Shown here piece by piece: positions 3,998-18,231 of a DNA stretch of 20,352 bases. Within the stretch, counting starts at the first letter, position 1. Every line of letters starts with the position of its first letter. Made by a program: the position numbers and the translations under genes. Source of the DNA: a virus (Duplodnaviria; Heunggongvirae; Uroviricota; Caudoviricetes); IMG/VR virus record IMGVR_UViG_3300010367_000170; one strand, given 5' to 3'. Under the pieces are notes generated by a model that made no database searches, was not told where the DNA came from, and saw nothing but the letters and a program-made list of their open reading frames with translations.

Positions 3998-5620
3998 CTA
4001 GTTGTCGATCTCCCACGGCCAACCGGCGTCACGGCCCCGCGACAACAAGTCCATCATCGTGAACATGGCGTCGGAGAAACCGCCGATCTCGAACCGGTTC
4101 GGGTCGGAGGTGTTGATGGACGTGGACGCGTAGCCGGAGGTGTTGATACCGAAGACCGGAACGTCCCTCGGAACCGAGTTCGACACCGACGCCCCGCCCC
4201 AGCCCGACGACAGGTGCGTCTGCATGTCGGAGATGATCACCACGCGCTTGTGGATCGTCTCACGGAACGTCGCCCGCACCGCCTCCACCGTCTTCGTGCC
4301 GTGACCCACCGTGCCGACCTTCGCGCAGAAGCTGTCGATCTGCTTCAACGCCGACCCGCCCTTGACCAGGTTGTGCGGGAACACCACGTTGCCGTAGCCG
4401 TCACCGGCGAAGCCGTACAGCTCCACGTCGTTGCCGCGCATCGCCAACGCCACACCGAACAGCGCGCCGACGTCCACGTGCCGCACCTTCGACTTCTCCG
4501 ACACCGTGTCCAACATCGAACCGGAAGTGTCCACCAGCACCAGCGTCGAACCGGAGAACTCCGGCAGGTTCCCGCACGCCGCATCCAAGCCCTTGTCCAA
4601 CGCGTGGCCCCACCGCAACGACGGAGCAGCCCGGTACGCCGACAACAGCCGGTACGGGAACACCCGCGCCTTCCGGATGTCCTCCGGGTTGGACAACTTC
4701 TCGCACACCTGCGCCGCGACCTTGTCCGAGACCTTGGCCTCATCAAAGTTGCGCAGGTTCCGCATCAGCGCGAACGCGCCCATGGACGGGATGATCGCCT
4801 CCCACGCCTTCGCGTCCATCGGACCCTGAAGCCACCCGGCCAGCGACTCCCACGTCATACCAGCCTCAGCCAGGCGCTCGGAGCCGTCGGCGGACAGCAA
4901 CACCTTCCGGCGCTCACCGACCGGCATCTCCATCAGAGCCTGCCGCGCCGCCAGCGTCTTGTTGCCCTCCGGCAGACGCACATCCGACCGGTTGTGACGC
5001 CGGTCCAGCGCGTAGCGGAACAGCTCCCCCTGCCACGGCTTGTCATCCGCCGGAGACGGGTGCACCAAGTCGATGACGTCACCGAACCGGTAGGCGCTGT
5101 TGTCGGAGTCGTACTTCAGCAGGTTCTTGCCGTTGTACAGCCGCCGAACAGCGTCGGCCACACCGCGCTTCACCGGCTTCGGCAGCTTCCGGCCGTAGTG
5201 AGACGTCCAGTACGACAACAACTCACCCGGCTCGTCAGCGCGCTGGCAGGCGGCGTCGATGAGGGTGCGCCCAGCCGGGGTCTGCTTCGCGTCCAGGCGC
5301 GCCTTCACCGCCTCGCAGGCGGCCACGACAGACGCCGAGCGCATGTTGGCCTTGGTGCGCAGCCACAGCACAAACCCGTGCATCCAGCCGTAGTCCTCCA
5401 CGGCGACCTTACGAACCAGGTCCCGGAAACGGGCATCACGGGCAGACGCCGACTCGTAAAACGTGGACTCGCCCACCATGTTGGTGACAGCCAGCAGCAG
5501 CAGAGCTGACTGGTCGTCGTGGCTCCAAGCCAAACCGCCCTCGTGGGTGCGGGCCGGTGCGGTCGTGGCCATCGGGGACTTCACCGACGGCTGCGCACCC
5601 TTGGTGTTGAACTTGCTCAT
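3998..5620 (-). CDS. rsr: Ro60-related RNA-binding protein (TROVE plus vWA domain), 540 aa
   Basis: Hallmarks THEGG, LAVTNMVGESTFYESA, ALMRNLRNF, vWA MIDAS LVDTSGSM and IISDMQT. ATG 5620 with SD AAGGAGG. Confidence 0.93.
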   Translation of the reverse strand: MSKFNTKGAQPSVKSPMATTAPARTHEGGLAWSHDDQSALLLLAVTNMVGESTFYESASARDARFRDLVRKVAVEDYGWMHGFVLWLRTKANMRSASVVAACEAVKARLDAKQTPAGRTLIDAACQRADEPGELLSYWTSHYGRKLPKPVKRGVADAVRRLYNGKNLLKYDSDNSAYRFGDVIDLVHPSPADDKPWQGELFRYALDRRHNRSDVRLPEGNKTLAARQALMEMPVGERRKVLLSADGSERLAEAGMTWESLAGWLQGPMDAKAWEAIIPSMGAFALMRNLRNFDEAKVSDKVAAQVCEKLSNPEDIRKARVFPYRLLSAYRAAPSLRWGHALDKGLDAACGNLPEFSGSTLVLVDTSGSMLDTVSEKSKVRHVDVGALFGVALAMRGNDVELYGFAGDGYGNVVFPHNLVKGGSALKQIDSFCAKVGTVGHGTKTVEAVRATFRETIHKRVVIISDMQTHLSSGWGGASVSNSVPRDVPVFGINTSGYASTSINTSDPNRFEIGGFSDAMFTMMDLLSRGRDAGWPWEIDN

Positions 5621-5668
5621 TACAGTTCCCTCCTTGTTTGTGGCGGAGGGAGAAGGCAACGCGGTGAC

Positions 5669-5778
5669 GCCCGAGATCCAGTCAGCTGCGGTGACACCGA
5701 CCGGCGAACCGGACGGTTTCAGGGGTTGAACCTGACCTTGTAAGGATTACCGAAGTAACCGCAGCTTACGCACCGGGC
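5669..5778 (-). ncRNA. Y-RNA-like gene A (T-arm plus UUCG hairpin, no clear D arm)
   Basis: Terminal helix GCCCG-GUGCGUAAGCUGCGG / CCGCAGCUGACUGGAUCU-CGGGC, shared UACUUC linker, T-arm UCAGG-UUCAACC-CCUGA; directly upstream of rsr. Confidence 0.75.
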
Positions 5779-5792
5779 ATCGGCGCGTTTCC

Positions 5793-5932
5793 CCTCCCGA
5801 GATCCAAACGGCTGCGGTCAGCTAGGGCAGGATTCGAACCTGCGACCTTTCCGCTCGCGCGGAACGCTCTACCAACTGAGCTACCCGGATGGTTGTTGTA
5901 TCCGAAGTAACCGCTGCCTACGCACCGGGAGG
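5793..5932 (-). ncRNA. Y-RNA-like gene B (D arm, GNRA-capped arm, T arm in normal tRNA order)
   Basis: Same terminal motifs GGUGCG and UGGAUCUC. Inner GCUC-AGUUGGUA-GAGC, UUCCGC-GCGA-GCGGAA, GCAGG-UUCGAAU-CCUGC. Confidence 0.8.
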
Positions 5933-5943
5933 TGCGTGTTTAG

Positions 5944-6033
5944 TTATTCGCCCTTGCAGCAGCCGCACTCGCCGCAGTGCATCGCCAGGCCGCAGTTGCA
6001 GCCCCAAGGACGCCATCTGATCCAGAACTTCAT
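5944..6033 (-). CDS. 29-aa Cys-rich micropeptide MKFWIRWRPWGCNCGLAMHCGECGCCKGE
   Basis: ATG preceded by GGAGGAGAAGC; 6 Cys; fits exactly in the gap between Y RNAs B and C. Confidence 0.5.
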   Translation of the reverse strand: MKFWIRWRPWGCNCGLAMHCGECGCCKGE

Positions 6034-6060
6034 GCTTCTCCTCCAGGCTTCGAACTGAAA

Positions 6061-6167
6061 TCCCCTGAGATCAAGTCGGTGACGGGGTGCCCAGCCAATG
6101 GGCCACCCCCGCGAGGTGGGGGTGTTTGGATTCGAACCGAAGTATCCGTCACTGTCGCACCAGGGGA
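6061..6167 (-). ncRNA. Y-RNA-like gene C (YrlA-like; short T-arm, closed acceptor-like hairpin, D arm)
   Basis: UCCCCUG-GUGCG / UGAUCUC-AGGGGA ends; GG-UUCGAAU-CC; CACCCCC/GGGGGUG hairpin; GCCC-AUUGGCU-GGGC. Confidence 0.8.
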
Positions 6168-6186
6168 AAGCTTGTTCGGTTGTGGC

Positions 6187-6328
6187 GGTCCTGAGTTCCA
6201 AGACGGCTTTGGGCTTACGTCCGTTGCTCTACCAGATTGAGCCACCGTCCGAGGGTGCCGGACGGGCTGGATTTGAACCAGCAACCCACGGCTCCAAGAG
6301 AAGTATCCAATGCCTACGCACCAGGACC
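6187..6328 (-). ncRNA. Y-RNA-like gene D (YrlA-like circularly permuted tRNA module)
   Basis: T arm GCUGG-UUCAAAU-CCAGC, then 7-bp acceptor-like CCGUCCG/CGGACGG closed by a loop, then UG-GCUC-AAUCUGGUA-GAGC D arm; terminal motifs conserved. Confidence 0.85.
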
Positions 6329-6340
6329 GCAAAGGTTTTG

Positions 6341-6482
6341 GCCTGCCAGAGATCCAAACGACTTGGGTAACGTTGACGTGCTGTCCATTACACCACCACC
6401 CCACGAGTGGGGTGGGCCGGAATCGAACCGGCACCTCCGGATCCGTATTCCGAAGTAACCCATGTCTGCGCACCTGGCAGGC
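6341..6482 (-). ncRNA. Y-RNA-like gene E (YrlA-like circularly permuted tRNA module)
   Basis: GCCUGCCAG-GUGCG / UGGAUCUC-UGGCAGGC ends; GCCGG-UUCGAUU-CCGGC; CCACCCC/GGGGUGG closed acceptor-like stem; D-like GUGU-AAUGGAC-AGCAC. Confidence 0.85.
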
Positions 6483-6550
6483 GCGTTGTTGTTCACCCCT
6501 GAACGGGGTGCGCCGTCTCCCGGATCGGGGGGGACGGGAGACGACGCGGG

Positions 6551-6625
6551 TAGCGGCGACGGGATTTGAACCCGCGATCTTCAGATTGAAAGTCTGACGA
6601 GCTTTCCAGACAGCTCCACACCGCC
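6551..6625 (-). tRNA. tRNA-Glu (TTC)
   Basis: Full cloverleaf; TCAGA-CT-TTC-AA-TCTGA; T loop TTCAAAT. Confidence 0.93.
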
Positions 6626-6754
6626 TTGCATGTCGGGTACCGAATCTCCGACTCCCTGGCCAACGAACGACTCCCTACCCTCACGGGCAGCCAGGCCCTT
6701 ACGCAGCTCTGCCGGTCCCTCCAACACCCGTGAACCCTTGTTGGAGGGACCAGG

Positions 6755-6828
6755 AGCCGTCACCGAGGTTCGAACTCGGAACACGTTCTTACCAAGAACG
6801 TAGCGTTGCCAGTTACGCCCACAACGGC
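6755..6828 (-). tRNA. tRNA-Thr (GGT)
   Basis: Cloverleaf; CGTTC-TT-GGT-AA-GAACG. Confidence 0.9.
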
Positions 6829-6968
6829 TTGTCCCGCGCACCCAACTGAACCGACTCCCCGTAGGGGTCTGCTCCACACCTGAACTTGTGCTCACCGGCG
6901 CGGGACGGTGAGCGTGCGCCTCAGACTGGTTCAGATGGCAACTTCTTACCGGCTGTTCCGCTCGCCGG

Positions 6969-7103
6969 TCACGGCTTCTTGCTCTTCTGCTGGCCTACCT
7001 TGCTCCAGGACACACCGGGGACCGGCATGCCACCCGGGAACAGGTGCGGGAACTTCCGTGCCCGCGCCAACATCTTCTTGCGCTTGTTCCGGCTGTAACT
7101 CAC
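6969..7103 (-). CDS. 44-aa highly basic small protein MSYSRNKRKKMLARARKFPHLFPGGMPVPGVSWSKVGQQKSKKP
   Basis: GTG preceded by AGGAGGAGGAGAA; lies in a tRNA-free gap; K/R-rich with no acidic residues. Confidence 0.6.
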   Translation of the reverse strand: MSYSRNKRKKMLARARKFPHLFPGGMPVPGVSWSKVGQQKSKKP

Positions 7104-7124
7104 TTCTCCTCCTCCTCTGTAACC

Positions 7125-7214
7125 GGGCTGGATCCCCGCAGGAGTCGAACCTGCCCTAGGAGTTGACGCAGGTTATCGGCCTACGCCGCTGGCCCTTCAG
7201 CTAAGGTCCAGCCC
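7125..7214 (-). ncRNA. Atypical tRNA-like element (CC-GAT-AA loop, long variable region, extended bulged acceptor helix)
   Basis: T arm GCAGG-TTCGACT-CCTGC; GTAGG-CCGATAA-CCTGC; ends GGGCTGGACCTT/GGGGATCCAGCCC pair over about 12 bp. Confidence 0.5.
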
Positions 7215-7216
7215 TG

Positions 7217-7288
7217 TACCGCACGCGAGACTTGAACTCGCAGAACCTGCTTGGAAGGCAGGCGGGTTGCCAATTACCCCAGTGCGGC
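7217..7288 (-). tRNA. tRNA-Gly (TCC)
   Basis: Cloverleaf; CCTGC-CT-TCC-AA-GCAGG. Confidence 0.92.
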
Positions 7289-7389
7289 ACACCCACCGTC
7301 CCCAGTTTCTGTGGGGGCGGGTGGTGCAGCAGACTTTGCGCTCAGGCGTCTACCGGTCCTGCTTCTTCCCCTCCGAGGAGGGACGCGCG

Positions 7390-7464
7390 TAGTCCGTACG
7401 GGATTTGAACCCGTGGTCTTCACCTTGAGAGGGTGACGAGATAGGCCAGCTACTCCAACGGACC
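7390..7464 (-). tRNA. tRNA-Glu (CTC)
   Basis: Cloverleaf; TCACC-CT-CTC-AA-GGTGA. Confidence 0.92.
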
Positions 7465-7469
7465 TCGCG

Positions 7470-7542
7470 CTGCGTCGGCAGGCTTCGAACCTGCATTGTC
7501 CAAGTTCAAAGCCTGGGGTCCTGCCAGTTAGACGACGACGCA
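7470..7542 (-). tRNA. tRNA-Gln (TTG)
   Basis: U1-A72, G73; CCAGG-CT-TTG-AA-CTTGG. Confidence 0.92.
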
Positions 7543-7547
7543 TAGCG

Positions 7548-7621
7548 CTGCACTGTCAGGATTCGAACCTGAAACCACCCGATTCAGAGCCGGGAGCGCT
7601 GCCAGATTGCGCCACAGTGCA
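7548..7621 (-). tRNA. tRNA-Gln (CTG)
   Basis: U1-A72, G73; CCCGG-CT-CTG-AA-TCGGG. Confidence 0.92.
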
Positions 7622-7897
7622 TTGCGCGGACTTCGGTCTGAGCCGTCCGCTGAGCCCGATGGACTTCACGCGTAGCCGTCTGCCCTGGGGTCTGGCTTGG
7701 CCGTATACCCCATTAGGCGACCTGTTCAACATACCGGCCCGTACGTCCGGCACCTCCGGGGATAACCCTCCAGGCGCTTCCCAGCCTCCCGGTCTTAGCG
7801 CGACCGGTAGTAACAGCTCCACGGCTCAAATCCCTGTCAGGATCCCCTGTCATAAGCGTGCAGGACTCTGGCCTCGACATGGGCCAGGCTGCGCGCG

Positions 7898-7978
7898 TGG
7901 GAGTGGTAGGTGTCGAACCTACAATGCTCGAAAGCGCGGGCTTTACAGGCCCGCTGGCAGACCGCTGCACTCACTCCC
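7898..7978 (-). tRNA. tRNA-Tyr (GTA)
   Basis: CGGGC-CT-GTA-AA-GCCCG; long variable arm GCT-TTCG-AGC. Confidence 0.9.
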
Positions 7979-8020
7979 GAAACCCCTTACGGGGCCGGTG
8001 TTGACGTTCCTCGCTAGGTG

Positions 8021-8099
8021 AAGCCCGGAGCGGAGTCGAACCGCTATCCACGCGCTTTGCAGGCGCGCTCTAGATACCGTCTAGATGAGGACCCGGGCA
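8021..8099 (-). tRNA. tRNA-Cys (GCA), atypical D arm
   Basis: CGCGC-CT-GCA-AA-GCGCG, U73. D region contains TCTAGA-CGGTA-TCTAGA; 1:72 mismatch. Confidence 0.75.
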
Positions 8100-8190
8100 A
8101 CGGAGCCGTCCGCCCGGTCCAGCCACGGTCAGCCTCCGAGGGGGTGGAGGCAATATCGGCAGCTTGCGCATCGGACCGGTACGGACGACG

Positions 8191-8262
8191 TGCCTCCGGT
8201 GGGATTCGAACCCACGTCGAACCACTTAGAAGGTGGTCTCCCATCCTCTGGGCGACGGAGGC
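8191..8262 (-). tRNA. tRNA-Arg (TCT)
   Basis: Cloverleaf; ACCAC-CT-TCT-AA-GTGGT. Confidence 0.9.
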
Positions 8263-8403
8263 GAGCGGGTCCACCGTCCTCAGATCCCCCGCCGTCGCTA
8301 GGGATTGTTCGATTCGCGGTGGACCCTAAAGTCCAGGAGGGGGAGGTACGTGGGCCGCTGGCCACGGTAGGCCACGCTTCTCGGCCAGTCCCTTCTGGAC
8401 TTG

Positions 8404-8477
8404 CGCTCGTGACGGGACTTGAACCCGTGACCTCCTGATTGACAATCAGGTGCCCTAACCGTCTGGGCCACACGAGC
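8404..8477 (-). tRNA. tRNA-Asp (GTC)
   Basis: CCTGA-TT-GTC-AA-TCAGG; G73. Confidence 0.93.
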
Positions 8478-8509
8478 CGGACGCAGGCGAACCTGCGCTT
8501 TTGTTCTAC

Positions 8510-8632
8510 CTAGTTCCCCTTCGTGCAGGTGTGCGGTCCCTTCCTGAGGCACACGATGTGCGAGTGGACAGCGCAAGCGAAGCACCCGCACGAACACATA
8601 CAACGCCTAGCCAGCAACAACAGATGTTTCAT
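8510..8632 (-). CDS. 40-aa Cys/His-rich micropeptide MKHLLLLARRCMCSCGCFACAVHSHIVCLRKGPHTCTKGN
   Basis: ATG preceded by GGAGGGAGGAGAAG; 7 Cys and 4 His; fills the gap between tRNA-Lys and tRNA-Asp and is followed by a UUCG hairpin. Confidence 0.5.
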   Translation of the reverse strand: MKHLLLLARRCMCSCGCFACAVHSHIVCLRKGPHTCTKGN

Positions 8633-8647
8633 CTTCTCCTCCCTCCG

Positions 8648-8719
8648 TGCGCCGCGAGGGTGTCGAACCCCCGACCCCTCCGTTAAGAGCGGAGTGCTCT
8701 ACCGTTGAGCTAGCGGCGC
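8648..8719 (-). tRNA. tRNA-Lys (CTT)
   Basis: CTCCG-CT-CTT-AA-CGGAG. Confidence 0.93.
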
Positions 8720-8832
8720 AGGTGAAGCAGGGGCCTGAGTTGAACAGGCCAGCGGGCCGTCGCCCTTTTCTCCTAAGGAACCCACCAAGGGTGCGCGGGA
8801 ATCGAACCCGCCACTGCCGGTTCCCTGCCTCG

Positions 8833-8904
8833 CAGGTCGCCAGGGACTTGAACCCTGTTCCACGGATTAAAAGTCCGTTACATAGCCATACATGCTCGCG
8901 ACCC
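8833..8904 (-). tRNA. tRNA-Lys (TTT)
   Basis: ACGGA-CT-TTT-AA-TCCGT; G73. Confidence 0.88.
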
Positions 8905-9038
8905 ATAAGCCCCACCATTCCGCAGTCAAGAGGAAGGCGGGGAACATTGGGGCCAGGCCAGGGTTCAACCCTTCCCGGAAGCACGGGGTTCGTACGGCCC
9001 AGCCAGGAACAGCCCGGATCAGGGGCTGCTGCTCCAAG

Positions 9039-9113
9039 TAGCGGGGACAGGATTTGAACCTGCGATCTCTGGATTATGAGCCCAGCGGGGACACCGAACT
9101 CCCCCACCCCGCG
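9039..9113 (-). tRNA. tRNA-Met (CAT), initiator-like
   Basis: CGCGGGG 5' end with C1:U72 mismatch; CTGGG-CT-CAT-AA-TCCAG. Confidence 0.88.
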
Positions 9114-9135
9114 TCGGCGCGGCGAACCGCGCTCG

Positions 9136-9207
9136 TGTCCTCGACAGGAATTGAACCTGCGCGCCCCGGGCTTCAACCGGATGCTCTTCCAACTGAGCTA
9201 CAAGGAC
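9136..9207 (-). tRNA. tRNA-Phe (GAA)
   Basis: TCCGG-TT-GAA-GC-CCGGG. Confidence 0.9.
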
Positions 9208-9359
9208 GTTGCCCGCCTACTGAATCAGTGCCGTACCCAAAGGACGTGTCCGGAGATCTCCTCCGGCTCTACAACAGCGGGCCGCATACAACGCACTCCA
9301 AAGGTATGCGAGCTTTGGCCGTCGTCAACGCCCCATCGGTGAGGCGTTGAGCGTGTGCG

Positions 9360-9430
9360 AGCCCTTGGCGGGAATCGAACCCACGTTGCCTCCCTGGCAA
9401 GGAGGTGTCTTGCCGCTAGACGACAAGGGC
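9360..9430 (-). tRNA. tRNA-Gly (GCC)
   Basis: CCTCC-TT-GCC-AG-GGAGG; U73. Confidence 0.93.
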
Positions 9431-9540
9431 GAACATCGTCCGGTAGGTGGTCCCGCTACCGCCACAAACACGGAAACGCGTACGGGCCGTGTTCCGCCAC
9501 CCCTTACCGCCCGTTCAGACCGGACGATGAATTTACTGCG

Positions 9541-9614
9541 AGCCCTGAGCCGGGGTCGAACCGGCGACCTCCGTTTTACGAGAACGGCGCTACTTCCAAC
9601 TGAGCCACCAGGGC
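9541..9614 (-). tRNA. tRNA-Thr (CGT)
   Basis: CCGTT-CT-CGT-AA-AACGG. Confidence 0.92.
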
Positions 9615-9699
9615 GCGGCAGCTGTTGCACAGGGGAACTGCCTACCCCTTCACCACCCCCATCACGGCCTGTCCTCCAACGGCCGTGACGGTTAGTGCG

Positions 9700-9771
9700 T
9701 AGCCCCACCGGGATTCGAACCCAGGCCTGCACCTTCGGAGGGTGCTGCGCTGTCCGCTGCGCTATGGGGCT
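9700..9771 (-). tRNA. tRNA-Arg (CCG)
   Basis: GCACC-CT-CCG-AA-GGTGC. Confidence 0.92.
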
Positions 9772-9908
9772 GTGTTGACCAACTCTCTTACAAGGTTAAG
9801 GCTCTGACTAGGCGCCATACAGCCTTGTAGAGAGGCGGGGGAGGCCACCCACCCTGATCCCGCATTGTCCGCAGCCCCTCGCCGGTCAAGGCTACTCACT
9901 GCGGCATG

Positions 9909-9981
9909 CTGTCCCAGCAGGGTTCGAACCTGCGACCTGAGGATTAACAATCCACTGCTCTGCCTACTGAGCTATAGGACA
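9909..9981 (-). tRNA. tRNA-Asn (GTT)
   Basis: GTGGA-TT-GTT-AA-TCCTC (one mismatch); G73. Confidence 0.9.
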
Positions 9982-10108
9982 ACGCCCCGCAAAGTTGCGC
10001 ACCCTCGCGGGGTTGTTGAGATGGGCGGGAACTGAACCAGCCTCTGAGCCTGCCGATTCGGGCGCCCCTAGTTCTCAGTTCTTAAGGGTCCGCTATTCCC
10101 ATCTCTCG

Positions 10109-10181
10109 TGCGTCTACAGGGACTCGAACCCCGAACCTGCTGGGTGTAGGCCAGCTGCTCTTCCAATTGAGCTACAGACGC
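10109..10181 (-). tRNA. tRNA-Val (TAC) with C33
   Basis: GCTGG-CC-TAC-AC-CCAGC; otherwise canonical cloverleaf. Confidence 0.85.
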
Positions 10182-10277
10182 TCCCGGGAGGGGGCAGCGC
10201 CGAACGCGCTGCCCTAGTCCTCCCTTGTAGGTATACCGGGCCTGGGGTATACCAGCCCAGGTGATCGACACTTGCCC

Positions 10278-10346
10278 GTGAGGCGGCTGGAATCGAACCA
10301 GCTTCGGGAGTCTTCGCGAAACCCTACGTAACCAACGTCCACCTCC
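10278..10346 (-). pseudogene. Degenerate tRNA-like element, TC-GCG-AA loop (Arg GCG-like)
   Basis: Perfect T arm GCTGG-TTCGATT-CCAGC; 6-bp acceptor; short D arm ACGT-TGGTT-ACGT; C33. Confidence 0.5.
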
Positions 10347-10400
10347 AGCGGGTAGCGAACCCGCCTTCACCGGGTTCAGGACGCGTTCCTGAGTACCGGC

Positions 10401-10476
10401 TGGTGTCCCCGGGAGGAATCGAACCTCCAACCTCCTGATTCGTAGTCAGGTGCCCTATCCGTTGGGCCACGGAGAC
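10401..10476 (-). tRNA. tRNA-Arg (ACG), CCA encoded
   Basis: CCTGA-CT-ACG-AA-TCAGG; ends A-CCA. Confidence 0.95.
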
Positions 10477-10635
10477 ATGACGATTATCGCAGGCCAGGAA
10501 CCGTCGCCCGGTAGTAGCGCAAGATCCATTTGCGCCCTGCTTGTCACGCACATTCGCAGCAAAATCAGGGGACACCCTGGGGTACTTGGGATAACCGGAG
10601 GTGTTGCTGCCCGGAGCGTGACCGCACCGTTCCCG

Positions 10636-10704
10636 TGGTCAGTGCGGGATTCGAACCCGCATCCAGTCACAAGTGGACCCGCTCAGCCGTTGAGCTACCT
10701 GACC
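10636..10704 (-). pseudogene. tRNA-like element with aberrant anticodon arm (GGTC-CACTTGT-GACT)
   Basis: Canonical D arm (GCTC-AACGGCT-GAGC) and T arm, 6/7 acceptor pairs; 4-bp anticodon stem, no U33. Confidence 0.6.
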
Positions 10705-10714
10705 CTGCTGTACG

Positions 10715-10786
10715 TGGAAATGAAGGGACTCGAACCCTTGACCCGACCGGCACATATCCGGCGCTCTGCCGCTGAGCTACATCCCC
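10715..10786 (-). tRNA. Non-canonical tRNA: Ala-type acceptor (G3:U70, A73) with AT-ATG-TG anticodon loop
   Basis: GGGGATG/CATTTCC-A acceptor; canonical D and T arms; CCGG-ATATGTG-CCGG. Confidence 0.65.
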
Positions 10787-10901
10787 TAGGTGGCCGGGCT
10801 GTACGGGACTTACCGGCCGTGCATGCTGCCGCTGACAGAAGCGTTCCCGTCTGGTTCCTGGCGTACCGGCAATCTAAGGCACCGACGTCCCGTCACCATT
10901 G

Positions 10902-10975
10902 TGCTCACAGAGGGATTTGAACCCTCACTTGCGGCGGTTTGAGCGCCGTGCCTCTGCCGATTGGGCTACGTGAGC
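10902..10975 (-). tRNA. tRNA-Leu (CAA), short variable loop
   Basis: CGGCG-CT-CAA-AC-CGCCG; variable region only CAAGT; A73. Confidence 0.9.
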
Positions 10976-11083
10976 TGGAAGCGCAGTCCCGTGCGGGAGG
11001 AGAAGTCACCGCACGGGACTACTTACTCCAAGACCTTTGCTGCCGCCGGAGGAAAGCCTGTAAGCCGACAGGTCTCGGAGTCG

Positions 11084-11157
11084 TTGCCACGGCTGGATTC
11101 GGACCAGCGACATACGCCTTATCAGAGCGCTGCTCTACCAGGCTGAGCTACGTGGCA
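11084..11157 (-). tRNA. tRNA-Ile (GAT)
   Basis: GCGCT-CT-GAT-AA-GGCGT; T-loop variant TCCGAAT. Confidence 0.88.
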
Positions 11158-11278
11158 TTGTCGGACGGCCTGCGCGAGGCAGGCCACCGACGTCTACGTT
11201 CATTTACATCATCGTCGCTGTTGAGTTCTCAAGGTTCCAGGAGCTTCGTGCCGACGTACAGCGCGCTCCAAACGTGCG

Positions 11279-11349
11279 CGTCCTTGAAGGGATTCGAACC
11301 CTCGCTTGCCCACCAGGAACTGGGCGCTCTACCGTTAAGCTACAAGGAC
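11279..11349 (-). tRNA. tRNA-like, probably Arg(CCT)-derived, with an irregular 8-nt anticodon loop
   Basis: Perfect acceptor GTCCTTG/CAAGGAC, D and T arms; CCCA-GTTCCTGG-TGGG. Confidence 0.55.
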
Positions 11350-11363
11350 ACCTTGTTCAGTTG

Positions 11364-11426
11364 TACGGGGACCGGAGTCGAACCGGAACCTCAGCCGTGC
11401 ACTGCTACTCTCCCACCCGGACCCGC
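11364..11426 (-). pseudogene. Highly degenerate tRNA-like remnant
   Basis: T arm CCGG-TTCGACT-CCGG and a partial acceptor GCGGG/CCCGT; D and anticodon arms are poor. Confidence 0.35.
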
Positions 11427-11524
11427 TTGGCAGGCCCGTTTTCCCCTCGCGGGGACACCCAACCAGTTCGGACCTGGCGGTTCCGGCGTTGAAACTCCAC
11501 GGGCCAACAGGGTCGTCGCCTTCG

Positions 11525-11580
11525 TGGACCCAGAGGGTTTCGAACCCTCCCACGCGCGTCAGCCCCCAGGGCTTGGGCCC
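11525..11580 (-). ncRNA. 56-nt mini-tRNA: full acceptor with G3:U70 and A73 plus T arm, no anticodon arm
   Basis: GGGCCCA/TGGGTCC-A; GAGGG-TTCGAAA-CCCTC; only one small hairpin (AGCCC-TGG-GGGCT) between them. Confidence 0.55.
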
Positions 11581-11611
11581 GTATTCAGTTGTTGGCTCCG
11601 TCCTACCGGAG

Positions 11612-11684
11612 GGTGATGTGCGGGAATCGAACCCGCTGCTGCCTGGATCACAACCAGGTCCCCGACCGGAGGGGCTACACCACC
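11612..11684 (-). tRNA. tRNA-His (GTG)
   Basis: G-1:C73 pair; CCTGG-TT-GTG-AT-CCAGG. Confidence 0.88.
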
Positions 11685-11690
11685 AAGAGG

Positions 11691-11771
11691 TCTCGCCAGA
11701 GATCCAAGGCGACTCCGGATCTGAATTCATTCCCAAAACGAAGGAACCGGGGTCATGCGCACCTGGCGAGA
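11691..11771 (-). ncRNA. Y-RNA-like gene F (minimal: terminal helix only, no tRNA module)
   Basis: UCUCGCCAG-GUGCGCAUGACCCCGG-UUCCUUC ... CCGGAGUCGCCUUGGAUCUC-UGGCGAGA; same motifs as copies A-E. Confidence 0.7.
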
Positions 11772-11790
11772 TCTGTGAAGTTTTAGGTTG

Positions 11791-11939
11791 TGCATCCCCC
11801 AGAGGTCCAGTCGATCAGGCGATCGTAGGCGCTCTGCCGCTGAGCTACAGTCCCGGTTTCCCGGCACCGGCAGGATTCGAACCTGCGACATCCCGCTTAA
11901 AAGGCGAAGAACTCCTGGTCTGCGCACCTGGGGGGTGCA
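11791..11939 (-). ncRNA. Y-RNA-like gene G (complete four-arm permuted tRNA with a Lys UUU-type anticodon loop)
   Basis: CCCCCAG-GUGCG / UGGACCUC-UGGGGG ends. UUCGC-CUUUUAA-GCGGG, AUGUC, GCAGG-UUCGAAU-CCUGC, GAAA-closed acceptor-like helix, UA-GCUC-AGCGGCA-GAGC. Confidence 0.82.
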
Positions 11940-11986
11940 TCGTCTTCCCTTTGGGGCTTTCGCTCCGTCGTTCCGGCGATGTCTTT

Positions 11987-12016
11987 ACGATACCGCGTTT
12001 CGGCTCCGGGCGTCTA
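11987..12016 (-). promoter_or_regulatory. Candidate sigma70/HrdB-type promoter for the RNA array
   Basis: TAGACG-18 nt-TATCGT on the minus strand, about 50 nt upstream of Y RNA G; motif match only. Confidence 0.35.
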
Positions 12017-12541
12017 ATCGAAATCCAACACCTGGACCGGTTTCACGTTCCCAGCATCCCCGTCTCGGAGCCGGATAGCAAGATCACCGTCGGGGGCTTC
12101 GAAGACTTCGAACTTGGACGGGCCGCGACGGCGCCAACCCGGATCCCGGATGTCCAGCACCTTCTCAGGCGAAGCCTGACCGGAAGCCAGCTCCAGAAGC
12201 AACGGCGTGTCCTCCGGATACAAGTCCATAGGGCGCACCGCGAAACCCTCCAGAACAGGCGTCTCAAGCCAAGCCACCGGGTTGCCAACCCCGTGGCGGG
12301 ACAGCATGTCCGTGACAGCCAGAAGATGCGCCACCTTCATCGCGTCGGAGAACCACGCCTTGTCGCCGCGCCTCCAACTCTGGACGTCGAAGACGTTGGT
12401 GTTCAACATCCTCGCGACGTCCCTCAGGGCGAAGCCCATGTCCACCAGCTCCTCCACCGAAGCGGCCTTACCGTTCCTGCGACGCTCCATCTGAAGCTTG
12501 TGGAACGTTGACACGTCCTCAGAAGTCACCAACGTCATCAC
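12014..12541 (-). CDS. HTH protein resembling Xre/MbcA/ParS-type antitoxins
   Basis: HTH-like 'GFALRDVARMLNTNVFDVQSWRRG' followed by 'NPVAWLETPV..RPMDL'; SD AAGGAGG; family call by pattern only. Confidence 0.5.
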   Translation of the reverse strand: MMTLVTSEDVSTFHKLQMERRRNGKAASVEELVDMGFALRDVARMLNTNVFDVQSWRRGDKAWFSDAMKVAHLLAVTDMLSRHGVGNPVAWLETPVLEGFAVRPMDLYPEDTPLLLELASGQASPEKVLDIRDPGWRRRGPSKFEVFEAPDGDLAIRLRDGDAGNVKPVQVLDFD

Positions 12542-12719
12542 CTCCTTTGGGTGGCTCCACGCAACCGTGGATCTTGCGGTAATCGTTCAGGTCAGGGTTG
12601 GGATGCGCCTCGCCGCGCAACGAGTACTCGCACTCCTCGGACAGCTGCCGAGCCTGCTCCGGAGACAGACAAGACGGCCAGTCGCAGATACGGCACACCC
12701 GGAACTTAGGAGCCGTCAT
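12519..12719 (-). CDS. Small Cys-containing hypothetical protein (66 aa)
   Basis: CRIC..PSC..C; overlaps both neighbouring genes, as typical of phage operons. Confidence 0.5.
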   Translation of the reverse strand: MTAPKFRVCRICDWPSCLSPEQARQLSEECEYSLRGEAHPNPDLNDYRKIHGCVEPPKGGDDVGDF

Positions 12720-12936: not shown

Positions 12937-13151
12937 CACTGCTCCTCCGGGAAGACTATGGTGACGACTGCCGATGCAACCAGGCGTTCGACCTCTGCCA
13001 TGAGGTCGAACCATTGGTCGTCGGTCAGCCAGTTGTTCTCTGGAATCTCGGCCAGCGTGTCATTGGCGGGGAACGGCGCGTTGAGACGGTTGAGGATCAC
13101 CAGCCGAGCTAGCTGCTGAACGCGCAGCGGAGCAATATCAGAAGGCGCCAT
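12936..13151 (-). CDS. Hypothetical protein (71 aa, MAPSDIAPL...)
   Basis: Start chosen at the ATG overlapping the end of the HAD gene; coupled to the downstream gene. Confidence 0.55.
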   Translation of the reverse strand: MAPSDIAPLRVQQLARLVILNRLNAPFPANDTLAEIPENNWLTDDQWFDLMAEVERLVASAVVTIVFPEEQ

Positions 13152-13758
13152 CAGCGACCTGGAAGCAAGCCAGTCCCAGTTTCCGCCACAGGTACACGCA
13201 GCGGTCACGGTCGTCCAGGACCAGGTGCGGATGCCAGAGGTCCCGGACGTGTTTGTCGAAGAGTTCCAGCTTCACGATGTCGTCACCGCGCCGGTCCCCT
13301 CCGGGGCGCATGTGCAGCTCGTCATACGGAACCTGGAACTTCTTCAGCCACCGCTCCGTGTGGGGCCGGTACTCCTCTTGGCGGCCGGACAGCAGGATGA
13401 TCCGCTGGCCGTCTCTGCGGAACAAGTCCAGGGCGTAGACGACCTGCTTGTACTCGGTGTCGGTTTCGACCTTGTCGAAGTCGTACGGGCCACGGTTGGT
13501 GTGCAGGGCCAGGGTGCCGTCGATGTCGCAGACGATAGCTGGGGGCTGCCCGTTGAACTCGTACGTCCTGGCGAACTCCACATCGACGGCGAGGCCGGTG
13601 AACCTGTGGCTGGGCTCTGTGGCGATGATGGCGCTGCGGGCGTCGTTCTCCACGTCCGTGATGCGACGGGAGACGCCGGGGAGCAGGTGCCTGCCGGTCT
13701 GAACCTTCCAGGCCCACTCCACGCCGTCGGAGTCCACGGTGACGGTGTAGTCGCTCAC
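13138..13758 (-). CDS. HAD-family phosphatase of the Pnkp 3'-phosphatase type with a short N-terminal extra domain
   Basis: DIDGTL (DxDxT), LLSGR, LHMRP..DRRGDDIVKLEL, DDRDRCVYLWRKLGL: motif order as in the C-terminal domain of T4-type polynucleotide kinase/phosphatase. No P-loop. GTG overlaps the upstream TGA. Confidence 0.85.
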   Translation of the reverse strand: MSDYTVTVDSDGVEWAWKVQTGRHLLPGVSRRITDVENDARSAIIATEPSHRFTGLAVDVEFARTYEFNGQPPAIVCDIDGTLALHTNRGPYDFDKVETDTEYKQVVYALDLFRRDGQRIILLSGRQEEYRPHTERWLKKFQVPYDELHMRPGGDRRGDDIVKLELFDKHVRDLWHPHLVLDDRDRCVYLWRKLGLACFQVADGAF

Positions 13759-13988
13759 TTGTACATCCATGTCCACTCGGAGGCGTTTGGATCCCACTCC
13801 ACGTCCAGGCTGTAACACTCTCCGTTGAAGGCCCACTCCACGGAATAGGACGCGCCTTCTTCATCGACGTCGGGGCAGACGGCGAAGCCGAGAGAGTGTG
13901 AGCGGTTCAGCAGCGCCGCAAGGTCTTTGGCGACAAGAGCGGCGCTTACGGCAACGTGCTGCTGAAAGTTCTCTCTGATATCGCTCAT
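13755..13988 (-). CDS. Hypothetical protein (77 aa, MSDIRENF...)
   Basis: ATGA overlap upstream and GTGA overlap downstream. Confidence 0.6.
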   Translation of the reverse strand: MSDIRENFQQHVAVSAALVAKDLAALLNRSHSLGFAVCPDVDEEGASYSVEWAFNGECYSLDVEWDPNASEWTWMYK

Positions 13989-16777: not shown

Positions 16778-17686
16778 CTACACGGTCACCGCGTCGTTGC
16801 GCTTCTCCCGGACGGAGACGGCGCGGTCAAGTTCCTCATCGGCGGTACCGCAGTCGGTGACCTTGGTTCGGAAGTACGAGACCACGCTGATCCGCTCGGC
16901 GCCGCAGTCCTTGCAGTACTTGTCCAGGACGTTCCCGCAGGCGCAGACGATAGCTGTGTTCCCGTGGAATTCGTGCGCATCCATCAGGATCAGGTCCCCG
17001 TCCTGAAGATCCACCGCGACCCGGTACTCCGGGAACGTCAGACGTCCTCCCGTGAACTCCCCTCGCCGGATACAGGCGATAGTGGAGAACCCCTTGTCCA
17101 AGTCCCCCTTGTCGGTGTGGACGCCGGTCGGGTAGGTGTTGTTGACGGTGACGGTGGAGAACGGAGTGCCCGGTACCACCCACTCCGGCTTGGAGGCTTT
17201 TGCTTCAGCGAGCTGGTTGGCGTACCGGTCCGGGACGTACTCCTCCAGGTACCTGGCGACCTGGATCAGGAACGGCTGGAGGTTCTTCCATTGGGGCAGG
17301 TTGTCGCCGGTCCAGGCGGTCAGGCGGCAGTAGCGGTAGATCCCTCCGGGGTCAATCGCGCCGATGATCGCAGAGGGCACGTCTTTGGCGTAGGTGCGGT
17401 TCTGGCCGTTGCGCTTGACGCGGACGCTACCGGCGGCCATGCCCCGGTTCTTGCTGACAGCGTTCCAGAGGCTGTGGAGGATCGTATACACCTCATCGGT
17501 GACGACGTCCTTCATGGCTCCGGGCAGGTACACGCACAACGGCGAACCGTTCGGTTTGCGGACGTACGCCGGTCCGGTCAGCAGGATGTTGTAGTCGGCA
17601 TCAGTGAGGATCTTCGCGATCTTCTCATCCATCTCCTGCTTCGAGATCTTCGAACGCAGACGGATGTCAACGAGAGGGACGCTCAC
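16778..17686 (-). CDS. TET/JBP-family 2-oxoglutarate/Fe(II) dioxygenase (302 aa)
   Basis: NRG..AG, RYCRLT, PFSTVTVNN..TGVHTDKGD (HxD), GGRLTFPEY, HEFHGNT (distal H), ERISVVSYFR. GTG overlaps the upstream TGA. Confidence 0.88.
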   Translation of the reverse strand: MSVPLVDIRLRSKISKQEMDEKIAKILTDADYNILLTGPAYVRKPNGSPLCVYLPGAMKDVVTDEVYTILHSLWNAVSKNRGMAAGSVRVKRNGQNRTYAKDVPSAIIGAIDPGGIYRYCRLTAWTGDNLPQWKNLQPFLIQVARYLEEYVPDRYANQLAEAKASKPEWVVPGTPFSTVTVNNTYPTGVHTDKGDLDKGFSTIACIRRGEFTGGRLTFPEYRVAVDLQDGDLILMDAHEFHGNTAIVCACGNVLDKYCKDCGAERISVVSYFRTKVTDCGTADEELDRAVSVREKRNDAVTV

Positions 17687-18231
17687 CGCAGCACCTCCAA
17701 AGCGGGCACAGCCTCCATCAAAACCTCCACCAGTTCCTGCGGGGTCCGCATAGCGTCCAAGTCCCAGCCGCCGATAGCGGCACGGAGGTTCGCCGCGCGG
17801 GTGCTGGCTCCCTGGACCCACTTCTCGTTCTGGTTGCTGCCACGTTTGCGGCGGCGTGCTTCCAGCTCCTGCCGGGTAGCGTCTAGATAGAACGTGTGCA
17901 CGTCGTATTCAGCTCCCCTCGCTGCCTCTAGGAAGCCGCGCGTGGCGAGCCTTGCCCCTTCGCCCAGGATGAGACGGTACGGAGCCGTACGCACCCAGGA
18001 GACAGCTTCTGGCTGGATACTCATCGATAGGGCGTCGGTACCGGAGAACGCTTCGCGGCGGCGGCCCAACTCGGCGCCTCGAAGCTTGTTGCCGTGGAAC
18101 AGGATGTCGTGCGGCACCTTCGCAGCCGACGACGCGGAGCGGTCGCAGTGTTTCGTCAACTCCGCCATCAGAGTGGACTTCCCCGCTCCAGGCGGCCCGT
18201 AGAAGTACACAAACGTCCCTGCGCCTACCAC
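17683..18231 (-). CDS. P-loop nucleotide/nucleic-acid kinase of the type linked to base-modification clusters
   Basis: Walker A GPPGAGKST, GTDALS, ILGEGARL, lid RRRKRGS. Confidence 0.8.
   Translation of the reverse strand: MVGAGTFVYFYGPPGAGKSTLMAELTKHCDRSASSAAKVPHDILFHGNKLRGAELGRRREAFSGTDALSMSIQPEAVSWVRTAPYRLILGEGARLATRGFLEAARGAEYDVHTFYLDATRQELEARRRKRGSNQNEKWVQGASTRAANLRAAIGGWDLDAMRTPQELVEVLMEAVPALEVLR

What the first reader, a model, noticed from the sequence alone, without database searches (positions are those of the whole stretch)
11791..11939. Y-like RNA containing a complete permuted tRNA with an intact Lys(UUU) anticodon loop
The order is anticodon arm (UUCGC-CU-UUU-AA-GCGGG), variable AUGUC, T arm, GAAA-closed acceptor helix, D arm, i.e. 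a tRNA opened between the D and anticodon arms. It cannot be aminoacylated yet displays the loop that PrrC-type anticodon nucleases recognise (established target: tRNA-Lys UUU). Copy E has a similar arm (UCGGA-AUACGGA-UCCGG). It is the first RNA after the candidate promoter. Inference: a Ro-stabilised decoy for anticodon nucleases or modification enzymes.
Basis: partly seen in the sequence, partly recalled or inferred. Interest (0 to 1): 0.8.

Follow-up and report, generated by a model that had tools for sequence, protein, structure and literature searches.

The report
Phage Y RNA with anticodon-arm mimic
A small RNA gene of an uncultured soil phage belongs to a known class of tRNA-mimicking "Y RNAs" that work with the Ro60 protein. 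It does carry a lifelike anticodon hairpin, but its lysine "anticodon" is only one of many interchangeable variants, so a lysine-specific decoy role is unproven.

Summary
Window 11791-11939 (minus strand) encodes a 149-nt RNA with a terminal Ro-type handle. Inside it lie an anticodon-like hairpin (loop CUUUUAA), a 5-nt variable loop, a T arm, a GAAA-capped acceptor helix and a D arm.

Re-joined in silico, ARAGORN calls it tRNA-Lys(UUU). It is then 63/73 identical to a genuine soil tRNA-Arg(UCU).

Covariation in about 45 phage and Streptomyces relatives moves the opening point to between tRNA positions 28 and 29. The anticodon stem is composite: 3 bp come from the 5' strand and 2 bp from the nucleotides after the D arm.

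The RNA is a member of the published YrlA family (Chen 2014), and the hairpin is their "V" stem-loop. M. smegmatis YrlA appears to carry the same hairpin with loop CUUCUAA.

In loop-unbiased samples U33 is invariant and A37/A38 are nearly so, while positions 34-35 are hypervariable. UUU appears 0 times in 37, so lysine identity is not conserved.

The decoy idea is already in print as a hypothesis (Hughes 2020) and remains untested. "Cannot be aminoacylated" is unsafe, because M. smegmatis YrlA is opened by RNase P and CCA-tailed in vivo.

Soil metatranscriptome contigs cover the element exactly.

This scan has reported YrlA-type permuted tRNA mimics on other DNA before. Verdict: new member of a known kind.

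The parts
11791..11939 (-). Whole Y RNA (about 149 nt), YrlA-type
   Evidence: Sequence reading. My model R1 scores the tRNA-like core at 76.4 bits. Rfam YrlA gives a sub-threshold hit of 28.4 bits at 11828-11893.
11919..11939 (-). 5' strand of the Ro-type handle, including GGUGCGCAG
   Evidence: The same motif starts the six other Y-like RNAs of the window and the rsr-adjacent YrlA RNAs of Streptomyces genomes.
11791..11810 (-). 3' strand of the handle (CUGGACCUCUGGGGGAUGCA)
   Evidence: Pairs with RNA 1-13 and 22-25. It is homologous to the (U)GAUCUC-N 3' motif of the other copies and of Streptomyces YrlA.
11907..11913 (-). Linker AGUUCUU, the counterpart of the conserved GUUACUU / 'YUAY' motif of YrlA
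   Evidence: GUUACUU precedes the hairpin in most relatives. Chen 2014 describe a conserved YUAY at this place.
11892..11906 (-). Anticodon-arm mimic: CGC / CUUUUAA / GCG plus GG (tRNA positions 29-43)
   Evidence: Sequence. ARAGORN reads anticodon ttt on the re-joined RNA. Stem covariation is shown. The 36-nt AC-to-T stretch (positions 29-64) matches real tRNA-Arg(UCU) genes at 35/36; the one difference is position 35, left free in the query.
11887..11891 (-). Variable loop AUGUC; C48 can form the Levitt pair with G15
   Evidence: Sequence. A 5-nt spacer ending in a pyrimidine is the rule in relatives.
11870..11886 (-). T arm GCAGG/UUCGAAU/CCUGC
   Evidence: 100% paired, covarying.
11848..11869 (-). 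Acceptor helix, 9 bp closed by a GAAA tetraloop (one G.G mismatch). A possible RNase P site lies between 11855 and 11854.
   Evidence: Sequence. Relatives have entirely different, complementary acceptor hairpins. RNase P cleavage of M. smegmatis YrlA is reported in Chen 2014. The site in this RNA is an inference.
11828..11847 (-). U8-A9, D arm GCUC/AGCGGCA/GAGC, G26, and C27-C28 that close the top of the anticodon stem
   Evidence: The 27-nt 5' part (11828-11854: acceptor 5' strand, D arm, G26, C27-C28) is 25/27 identical to the tRNA at 10714-10786.
11812..11825 (-). Extra small hairpin CGAUC/GCCU/GAUCG in the 3' linker
   Evidence: Fold. It is not present in L006, so it is probably lineage-specific.
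11691..11771 (-). Next RNA in the same unit: a minimal Y-like RNA with the same handle and no tRNA module
Evidence: Sequence.
5665..6490 (-). Five more Y-like RNAs directly upstream of the Ro60 gene
   Evidence: Rfam YrlA hit of 42.3 bits at 6218-6290. R1 hits at 6223-6297 and 6377-6453.
5816..11683 (-). Array of 27 tRNA genes between the target and the Ro60 gene
3998..5659 (-). Ro60/Rsr gene (TROVE + vWA), presumed protein partner
   Evidence: Pfam TROVE E=1e-12. 43-58% identity to Ro proteins of Streptomyces/Gordonia phages and Streptomycetales genomes.
13138..13836 (-). Polynucleotide kinase-phosphatase (HAD_PNKP phosphatase domain), an RNA end-healing context
   Evidence: Pfam PF25109 E=2.5e-46 and phrog_505.

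Best explanation
The element is a YrlA-class Y RNA of an uncultured soil actinophage, probably infecting Streptomyces-like hosts.

Inferred by homology: its terminal handle binds the phage Ro60/Rsr ring.

Shown: the interior is a circularly permuted tRNA body with a T arm, a capped acceptor helix, a D arm and a full anticodon-arm mimic. The 5-bp stem of that mimic is assembled from two strands, and the handle branches off between tRNA positions 28 and 29. It most likely arose from a tandem or dimeric tRNA transcript of the Arg(UCU)/Lys(UUU) type.

Inferred from the YrlA literature: the tRNA-shaped module makes the RNA a stable, tRNA-like platform. That platform is recognised by general tRNA-handling proteins (TruB, Dus, RNase P, the CCA enzyme, and possibly repair or decay enzymes). 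It thereby tethers them to, or gates, Ro60 during the tRNA damage and repair conflict between phage and host.

The constrained parts of the hairpin are its shape and loop frame (U33, N36-A/G37-A38). The triplet is not constrained, so UUU is an incidental state and not a lysine-specific signal.
For: Architecture and tRNA completeness:
- Arm order and pairing.
- The re-joined RNA is called tRNA-Lys(ttt) by ARAGORN.
- The re-joined RNA is 63/73 identical to a real tRNA-Arg(UCU), and 41/45 over its 3' part.

Family membership:
- The handle motif is shared with six other copies in the window and with rsr-adjacent Streptomyces YrlA.
- Model R1, built from phage relatives, scores untrained rsr-adjacent chromosomal YrlA at 54-79 bits (nine loci) and the target at 76 bits.
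- 27 of 30 loop-unbiased relatives have a Ro-like ORF in the held stretch.
- L006 carries the same module directly upstream of a Ro-like gene. Its acceptor helix is completely different but complementary, also GAAA-capped.

Structure:
- 98.6% of cells are paired, with 13 of 18 pairs showing changes on both sides. The composite stem pairs are 100% paired with four pair types each. The all-5'-strand alternative is worse.

Loop statistics:
- U33 is 37/37 and A38 is 35/37. Entropy is 1.6-1.9 bits at positions 34-35. UUU occurs 0/37.

Expression:
- Contigs with 0-1 mismatch from three soil RNA libraries span 11229-12041 and 11351-12064.

Literature:
- YrlA architecture with V, T, AS and D elements.
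- The dimeric-tRNA origin model.
Against: - The Rfam YrlA score (28.4 bits) is far below the gathering score of 69. The YrlA-like element of mycobacteriophage Cali also scores only 36 bits.
- The thermodynamic MFE is not the cloverleaf. The proposed fold is 10.5 kcal/mol less stable than the MFE in the nearest-neighbour model.
- The target lies 6.1 kb from the Ro60 gene. That is further than the 4 kb typical in Chen 2014.
- No binding, modification or processing data exist for this RNA.
- RNA-library contigs cannot prove transcription, ends or strand.
- Coaxial stacking of the hairpin on the 27-28/42-43 pairs is inferred from connectivity, not shown.
Confidence: 0.7

Rival explanations
1. Lysine-specific decoy. 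The Ro-stabilised RNA displays the tRNA-Lys(UUU) loop to soak up or inhibit PrrC/RloC-type or other Lys-directed anticodon nucleases or modification enzymes.
For: - The loop is the exact canonical CUUUUAA on a 5-bp stem.
- The context includes a PNKP end-healing enzyme and a 27-tRNA array.
- L006 keeps the identical 39-nt anticodon-to-T module although the rest has diverged and GC content differs by 16 points.
- At least 17 CUUUUAA-bearing permuted modules occur in diverse viral contigs.
- Competitive inhibition of an anticodon nuclease by YrlA is a published hypothesis.
Against: - In loop-unbiased samples UUU is 0/37, and positions 34-35 vary as freely as expected for unconstrained bases.
- Rsr-adjacent YrlA genes of related actinomycetes (Streptomyces, Spirillospora) differ only in these two bases, and one has lost the hairpin.
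- The CUUUUAA set was selected by my own search pattern.
- The identity with L006 may reflect common derivation from a widespread real tRNA that matches the shared 36-nt stretch at 35/36.
- The phage's own tRNA-Lys(UUU) has the same loop.
Confidence: 0.08
2. General anticodon-loop decoy or sensor. The hairpin mimics anticodon loops generically (U33, U36-A37-A38 or G36-G37-A38 frames). It competes for, or reports on, loop-directed nucleases or position-37 modification enzymes. Positions 34-35 are diversified by an arms race.
For: - U33 is invariant and A37/A38 are strongly conserved. U36 or G36 occurs in 33/37.
- Positions 34-35 are hypervariable on conserved stems.
- Ro/YrlA is linked to RNA repair loci in the literature.
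Against: - Variability at 34-35 among the close Streptomyces relatives looks no greater than in the apical acceptor loops of the same RNAs, judged by eye and not measured. Neutral drift is therefore sufficient.
- Sequences are phylogenetically non-independent.
- S. Typhimurium YrlA functions without any such hairpin.
- One Streptomyces lineage has deleted the hairpin.
Confidence: 0.12
3. Two-piece tRNA. RNase P opens the acceptor loop and CCA is added, as in M. smegmatis. This would give a Ro-tethered, CCA-tailed split tRNA that could be charged or could engage LysRS, EF-Tu or the ribosome.
For: - A 7-bp acceptor register exists inside the 9-bp helix.
- M. smegmatis YrlA is processed this way in vivo.
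- All tRNA core nucleotides are present.
Against: - The G.G mismatch at pair 3-70, a G at the discriminator position, and no encoded C after it.
- Acceptor hairpins in relatives range from 5 to more than 12 bp.
- No end-mapping data exist. Contigs cannot show ends.
Confidence: 0.07
4. Permuted pre-tRNA that is excised, ligated and matured into a decoding tRNA-Lys, as in Cyanidioschyzon.
For: The re-joined sequence is a good tRNA. The resemblance of YrlA to permuted pre-tRNAs is noted by Wang et al..
Against: - No bacterial splicing endonuclease is known.
- The breakpoint lies inside a stem, with no bulge-helix-bulge motif evident.
- The handle is the conserved Ro-type motif.
- Relatives have non-tRNA acceptor lengths and arbitrary triplets.
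- A normal tRNA-Lys(UUU) is already present in the array.
Confidence: 0.03

Closest known systems
YrlA Y RNAs of actinobacteria and mycobacteriophages (M. smegmatis YrlA, phage ET08; Chen et al. 2014, PMC4201824; Rfam RF02553)
   Same: - Encoded upstream of, and on the same strand as, rsr/Ro60.
- Handle with a conserved 5' motif and a YUAY-type linker.
- A stem-loop ('V') before the T arm, then a capped acceptor stem, then the D arm.
- The tRNA tertiary-interaction nucleotides.
- Several Y RNAs per locus, next to tRNA genes.
- The M. smegmatis primer sequence is consistent with the same hairpin carrying loop CUUCUAA.
   Different: - 6.1 kb from rsr, with a 27-tRNA array in between.
- Loop triplet UUU.
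- 9-bp GAAA-capped acceptor helix.
- An extra 3' hairpin.
- Below the Rfam threshold.
- The literature labels the hairpin a variable arm. Here its connectivity and covariation place it at the anticodon-arm position.
S. Typhimurium YrlA (crystal structure 6CU1; Wang et al. 2018, 10.1101/312249)
   Same: L-shaped tRNA mimic with a T arm, closed acceptor and D arm. The top pairs of the anticodon stem are formed with the nucleotides that follow the D arm (Rfam consensus gcc...ggc).
   Different: The Salmonella RNA 'lacks the anticodon loop'. Its anticodon stem runs straight into the Ro-binding module. The present RNA has a separate 7-nt-loop hairpin at that junction.
Circularly permuted tRNA genes (Cyanidioschyzon merolae and others; cited in Wang et al. 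2018)
   Same: The 3' half is encoded before the 5' half, and the acceptor stem is initially closed.
   Different: Those RNAs are matured into decoding tRNAs through a circular intermediate by the splicing machinery. Here the flanks are a conserved Ro handle, and relatives have arbitrary triplets and acceptor lengths.
Competitive-inhibitor hypothesis for YrlA against an anticodon nuclease (Hughes et al. 2020, PMC7790460)
   Different: It was proposed for Salmonella YrlA, which has no anticodon loop, and it is untested in either system.

Membership tests
YrlA (bacterial/phage Y RNA) | Encoded near, and on the same strand as, a Ro60/Rsr (TROVE) gene | tested here: met
   The Ro60 gene is at 3998-5659(-). 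The target is on the same strand 6.1 kb upstream, which is further than the usual 4 kb or less. Five sister RNAs lie within 0.9 kb. Homologue L006 lies directly upstream of a Ro-like ORF.
YrlA (bacterial/phage Y RNA) | Terminal handle with the conserved 5'-strand Ro-binding motif | tested here: inconclusive
   GGUGCGCAG with a 3' GGACCUC-N is homologous to the handle of rsr-adjacent Streptomyces YrlA. It does not match GNCGAAN0-1G literally. Binding itself is not testable here.
YrlA (bacterial/phage Y RNA) | T arm, then capped acceptor stem, then D arm, with tRNA tertiary-interaction nucleotides | tested here: met
   U8, A14, G15:C48, G18G19, U54U55C56 and A58 are all present in the sequence.
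YrlA (bacterial/phage Y RNA) | Score at or above the Rfam RF02553 gathering threshold (69 bits) | tested here: not met
   28.4 bits. The best YrlA-like hit in mycobacteriophage Cali scores only 36.1 bits, so the model under-detects the actinobacterial and phage branch.
YrlA (bacterial/phage Y RNA) | Bound by Rsr in vivo; carries pseudouridine-55 and dihydrouridine | not testable with these tools
   Needs RIP and modification mapping.
Permuted pre-tRNA matured to a decoding tRNA | Conserved 7-bp acceptor and a fixed, codon-matched anticodon among orthologues | tested here: not met
   Acceptor hairpins range from 5 to more than 12 bp, and the triplets are arbitrary.
Lys-specific anticodon-nuclease decoy | Conservation of the UUU loop identity among relatives | tested here: not met
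   UUU occurs 0/37 in loop-unbiased relatives, with 13 different 34-35 dinucleotides. The only close homologue, L006, does keep UUU.
Lys-specific anticodon-nuclease decoy | Binding to, or inhibition of, PrrC/RloC-type nucleases without productive cleavage | not testable with these tools
   Biochemical assay required.

The most novel reading that the evidence does not exclude
The 'V' hairpin of actinobacterial and phage YrlA RNAs is a true anticodon-arm mimic. Its positions 34-35 are diversified by conflict with anticodon-loop-directed nucleases or modification enzymes. In that case each Ro60-tethered Y RNA would be a decoy or sensor tuned to a particular enzyme, and the present UUU version would be aimed at Lys-directed nucleases of the host.
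Probability: 0.1. Interest if true: 0.75.

Novelty: new member of a known kind. Interest (0 to 1): 0.38.

Why it matters
As an object it is ordinary: one more YrlA-type Y RNA in a phage tRNA/Ro60 locus, a type this scan has met repeatedly.

What is useful is the structural reading that came out of checking it.
- In the actinobacterial and phage branch, the published 'variable' stem-loop sits where the anticodon arm belongs. This probably includes the experimentally studied M. smegmatis YrlA.
- That hairpin has an invariant U33 and a conserved 36-38 frame.
- It completes a 5-bp stem together with the two nucleotides after the D arm.

These RNAs are therefore whole tRNAs opened at positions 28|29, not anticodon-less mimics. 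The present example is still 86% identical to a real tRNA after re-joining.

This gives concrete sequence support to the tandem-tRNA origin model. It also makes two questions directly testable: whether the hairpin is modified or recognised like an anticodon loop, and whether RNase P plus CCA addition yields a chargeable two-piece tRNA.

Tried and rejected
- No whole genome is held for the window.
- Rfam at gathering thresholds finds only tRNAs.
- The simple sigma-70 scan found no promoter upstream of the RNA. A TATCGT at 11987-11992 is only a guess, and the RNA contigs extend upstream of it.
- MFE folding does not return the cloverleaf.
- The metagenome scan with positions 34-35 left free found only L006 again, plus three genuine tRNA-Arg(UCU) genes. 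It therefore gave no series of close orthologues with which to test conservation of UUU.
- The window's own contig was not met in the collections scanned.
- Read laying showed no variant inside 11791-11939. Stretches without RNA cover (12132-12700) are not evidence by themselves.
- The 2026 preprint on tRNA mimics does not treat YrlA-type hairpins.
- Comparing the phage's tRNA-Lys(UUU) loop with the Y RNA loop gave no contrast.
- 12 of 18 CUUUUAA loci showed no Ro-like ORF in the held stretch. Many of these stretches are short fragments, so this is not evidence of absence.
- Rejected readings: a lysine-specific decoy as the main explanation, a permuted pre-tRNA, and a dead tandem-tRNA remnant. 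The last is contradicted by the conserved handle, covariation and RNA-library coverage.

Full report
**What is there.**
On the minus strand the window carries, in order:
- the target (11939 to 11791);
- a minimal Y-like RNA (11771-11691);
- 27 tRNA genes (11683-5816);
- five further Y-like RNAs (6490-5665);
- a TROVE+vWA Ro60/Rsr gene (5659-3998).

Upstream lie a PNKP-type phosphatase and a DNA-hypermodification cluster. No genome is held for the window. Its Ro60 is 43-47% identical to Ro proteins of Streptomyces and Gordonia phages, and 52-58% identical to chromosomal Ro of Yinghuangia and Streptomyces. The contig is therefore most likely from an uncultured actinophage. Near-identical DNA occurs in soil metagenomes.

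**Checking the observation.**
- a terminal helix;
- a hairpin with loop CUUUUAA;
- AUGUC;
- a canonical T arm;
- a 9-bp helix capped by GAAA, with one G.G mismatch;
- UA and a canonical D arm;
- G26.

I re-joined the RNA in silico (RNA 86-112 followed by 34-78). ARAGORN then calls a complete tRNA-Lys(ttt) cloverleaf, whereas the native order gives nothing. The re-joined sequence is 63/73 identical to a genuine tRNA-Arg(UCU) from a soil metagenome contig. Its 3' part is 41/45 identical to that tRNA. Its 5' part is 25/27 identical to another tRNA of the window's own array. Chance is excluded.

**A refinement from comparative data.**
An exact-match scan found a homologue in a 7.3-kb viral contig of 47% GC (L006). 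It lies directly upstream of a Ro-like ORF. Its 39-nt anticodon-to-T module is identical to the target's. Its acceptor helix is completely different but perfectly complementary, and also GAAA-capped.

Pattern scans of IMG/VR, filtered with ARAGORN to discard tandem tRNAs, gave about 48 distinct permuted modules. In 41 of 48, the two nucleotides after position 26 pair with the two nucleotides just before the variable loop.

On a 27-sequence alignment these two pairs are 100% Watson-Crick or G-U, with four pair types each. The alternative partners on the 5' strand pair in only 44-59% of sequences. These sequences were chosen for having the pairs, so the 41/48 figure is the unbiased one.

The anticodon stem is therefore composite. 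Pairs 29-31/39-41 come from the 5' strand, and pairs 27-28/42-43 come from the 3' strand. The tRNA is opened between positions 28 and 29, where the Ro handle branches off.

In the target, C27-C28 plus C29-G30-C31 reproduce exactly the CCCGC of the real tRNA-Arg(UCU).

**It is a YrlA.**
Chen et al. 2014 describe YrlA as follows:
- a handle with a conserved 5' motif;
- a YUAY motif;
- a less-conserved stem-loop 'V';
- the T arm;
- a closed acceptor stem;
- the D arm;
- encoded on the rsr strand in more than 250 bacteria and 22 phages.

The target has all of these. Its handle (GGUGCGCAG ... GGACCUC-N) matches the handle of rsr-adjacent RNAs in Streptomyces genomes. A covariance model built only from phage sequences scores those untrained chromosomal RNAs at 54-79 bits and the target at 76 bits. 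Of 30 loop-unbiased relatives, 27 have a Ro-like ORF beside them.

The Rfam model gives only 28 bits against a gathering score of 69. It gives only 36 bits for the best hit in mycobacteriophage Cali as well.

The anticodon-like hairpin is thus the published 'V' stem-loop. A primer in Chen's Methods indicates that M. smegmatis YrlA has the same hairpin with loop CUUCUAA. By connectivity the hairpin cannot be a variable arm, because it leaves the 27-28/42-43 helix on the anticodon side. That it stacks there is my inference.

**Is lysine identity meaningful?**
I sampled relatives without constraining the loop, in two ways.
- A scan anchored on GUUACUUC gave 30 clean cases.
- Ro-anchored chromosomal and phage loci gave further cases.

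The results:
- U33 is 37/37, A38 is 35/37, and position 37 is A or G.
- U36 or G36 occurs in 33/37.
- Positions 34-35 have the highest entropy, with 13 different dinucleotides.
- UUU occurs 0/37.

Seven rsr-adjacent actinomycete YrlAs (six Streptomyces, one Spirillospora) share the stem CCA/UGG. They read GAU (three times), GCU, GUU (twice) and UCU. An eighth has lost the hairpin.

By eye, variability at 34-35 in these relatives is no greater than in the apical acceptor loops of the same RNAs. I did not measure this. Drift is therefore sufficient to explain it.

The many CUUUUAA modules I found were selected by my own pattern. The phage's own tRNA-Lys(UUU) carries the same loop. The UUU triplet therefore looks incidental. 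What is conserved is the anticodon-loop frame.

**Function.**
Shown in the literature:
- YrlA folds like tRNA, is modified by TruB and DusA, and is bound by Rsr.
- In M. smegmatis it is cut by RNase P in the acceptor loop and gains CCA in vivo. 'Cannot be aminoacylated' is therefore not safe.
- The effector is unknown. Roles in RNA decay or repair are favoured.
- Hughes et al. 2020 explicitly suggested that the tRNA-like domain may competitively inhibit an anticodon nuclease.

I therefore commit to the following. This is a Ro60-bound YrlA whose tRNA-shaped module serves as a stable platform for general tRNA-handling proteins in the phage-host conflict over tRNA damage and repair. Identity is about 0.9 likely and the overall statement 0.7. 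A generic loop-decoy role is about 0.12 likely, and a lysine-specific one about 0.08.

**Expression.**
Contigs from three soil metatranscriptome libraries match with 0-1 differences across 11229-12041 and 11351-12064, and across parts of the tRNA, Y RNA and Ro60 region. The RNA contigs end near 12041 and 12064, and nothing was laid from the RNA runs beyond 12132. This is a weak hint that the transcription unit starts shortly upstream of the target. Contigs cannot show ends, strand or processing.

**Origin.**
The module fits the dimeric-tRNA origin model cited by Wang et al., with one addition. Here the anticodon arm of the upstream tRNA is retained intact. The acceptor helix is formed from the two tRNAs' acceptor strands, not from spacer alone.

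**Verdict.**
The object is a new member of a known kind. This scan has already reported YrlA-type permuted tRNA mimics next to Ro60-like genes on other DNA.

Noticed in passing
window 5790-5935 (-): A Y-type handle encloses a tRNA-like module in the normal D-to-T order. Its anticodon loop is replaced by a GCGA tetraloop on a 6-bp stem. ARAGORN calls it 'tRNA-???' at 5816-5891. This is the opposite arm order from its neighbours.
   Followed up: partly
window 11691-11771 (-): A minimal Y-like RNA with the same GGUGCG / GGAUCUC handle and no tRNA module lies immediately after the target, in the same RNA-library contigs.
   Followed up: partly
window 16778-19894 (-): A gene cluster typical of DNA base hypermodification: a Tet/JBP 2OG-Fe oxygenase, P-loop nucleotide kinase 3, an FAD oxidoreductase and an amino acid:DNA transferase (ADDT).
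   Followed up: no
L067, L086, L106, L108, L109, L023, L145, L178, L209 (viral contigs): AT-rich contigs, one labelled as a giant-virus MAG, carry permuted tRNA modules with a different conserved 5' flank (ACAGCAA). No Ro-like ORF was detected in the held stretch for the five of them that were in the CUUUUAA set (L023, L067, L086, L106, L108, L109 listed). This may be a second handle type or a different protein partner.
   Followed up: no
L254:4633-4706: In one Streptomyces genome the rsr-adjacent YrlA has lost the anticodon-like hairpin, while the T arm, acceptor and D arm are intact.
   Followed up: no
Relatives: Hairpin loops fall into two frames, YU-NN-UAA and NU-NN-GGA. From my own knowledge these resemble the U36-A37 (t6A) and G36-G37 (m1G, TrmD) determinants of real tRNAs, and A36 is almost absent. 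This is a speculative lead only.
   Followed up: partly
window 10714-10786 (-) versus 11828-11854 (-): The acceptor 5' strand plus D-arm part of the target is 25/27 identical to the odd tRNA with anticodon AUG. The 3' part instead resembles tRNA-Arg(UCU)/Lys. The two halves may therefore derive from different tRNAs.
   Followed up: partly
window 8832-8904 (-): The phage tRNA-Lys(UUU) has a weak 3-bp D stem with a G-U pair and an unusual D loop, yet a canonical anticodon loop.
   Followed up: no
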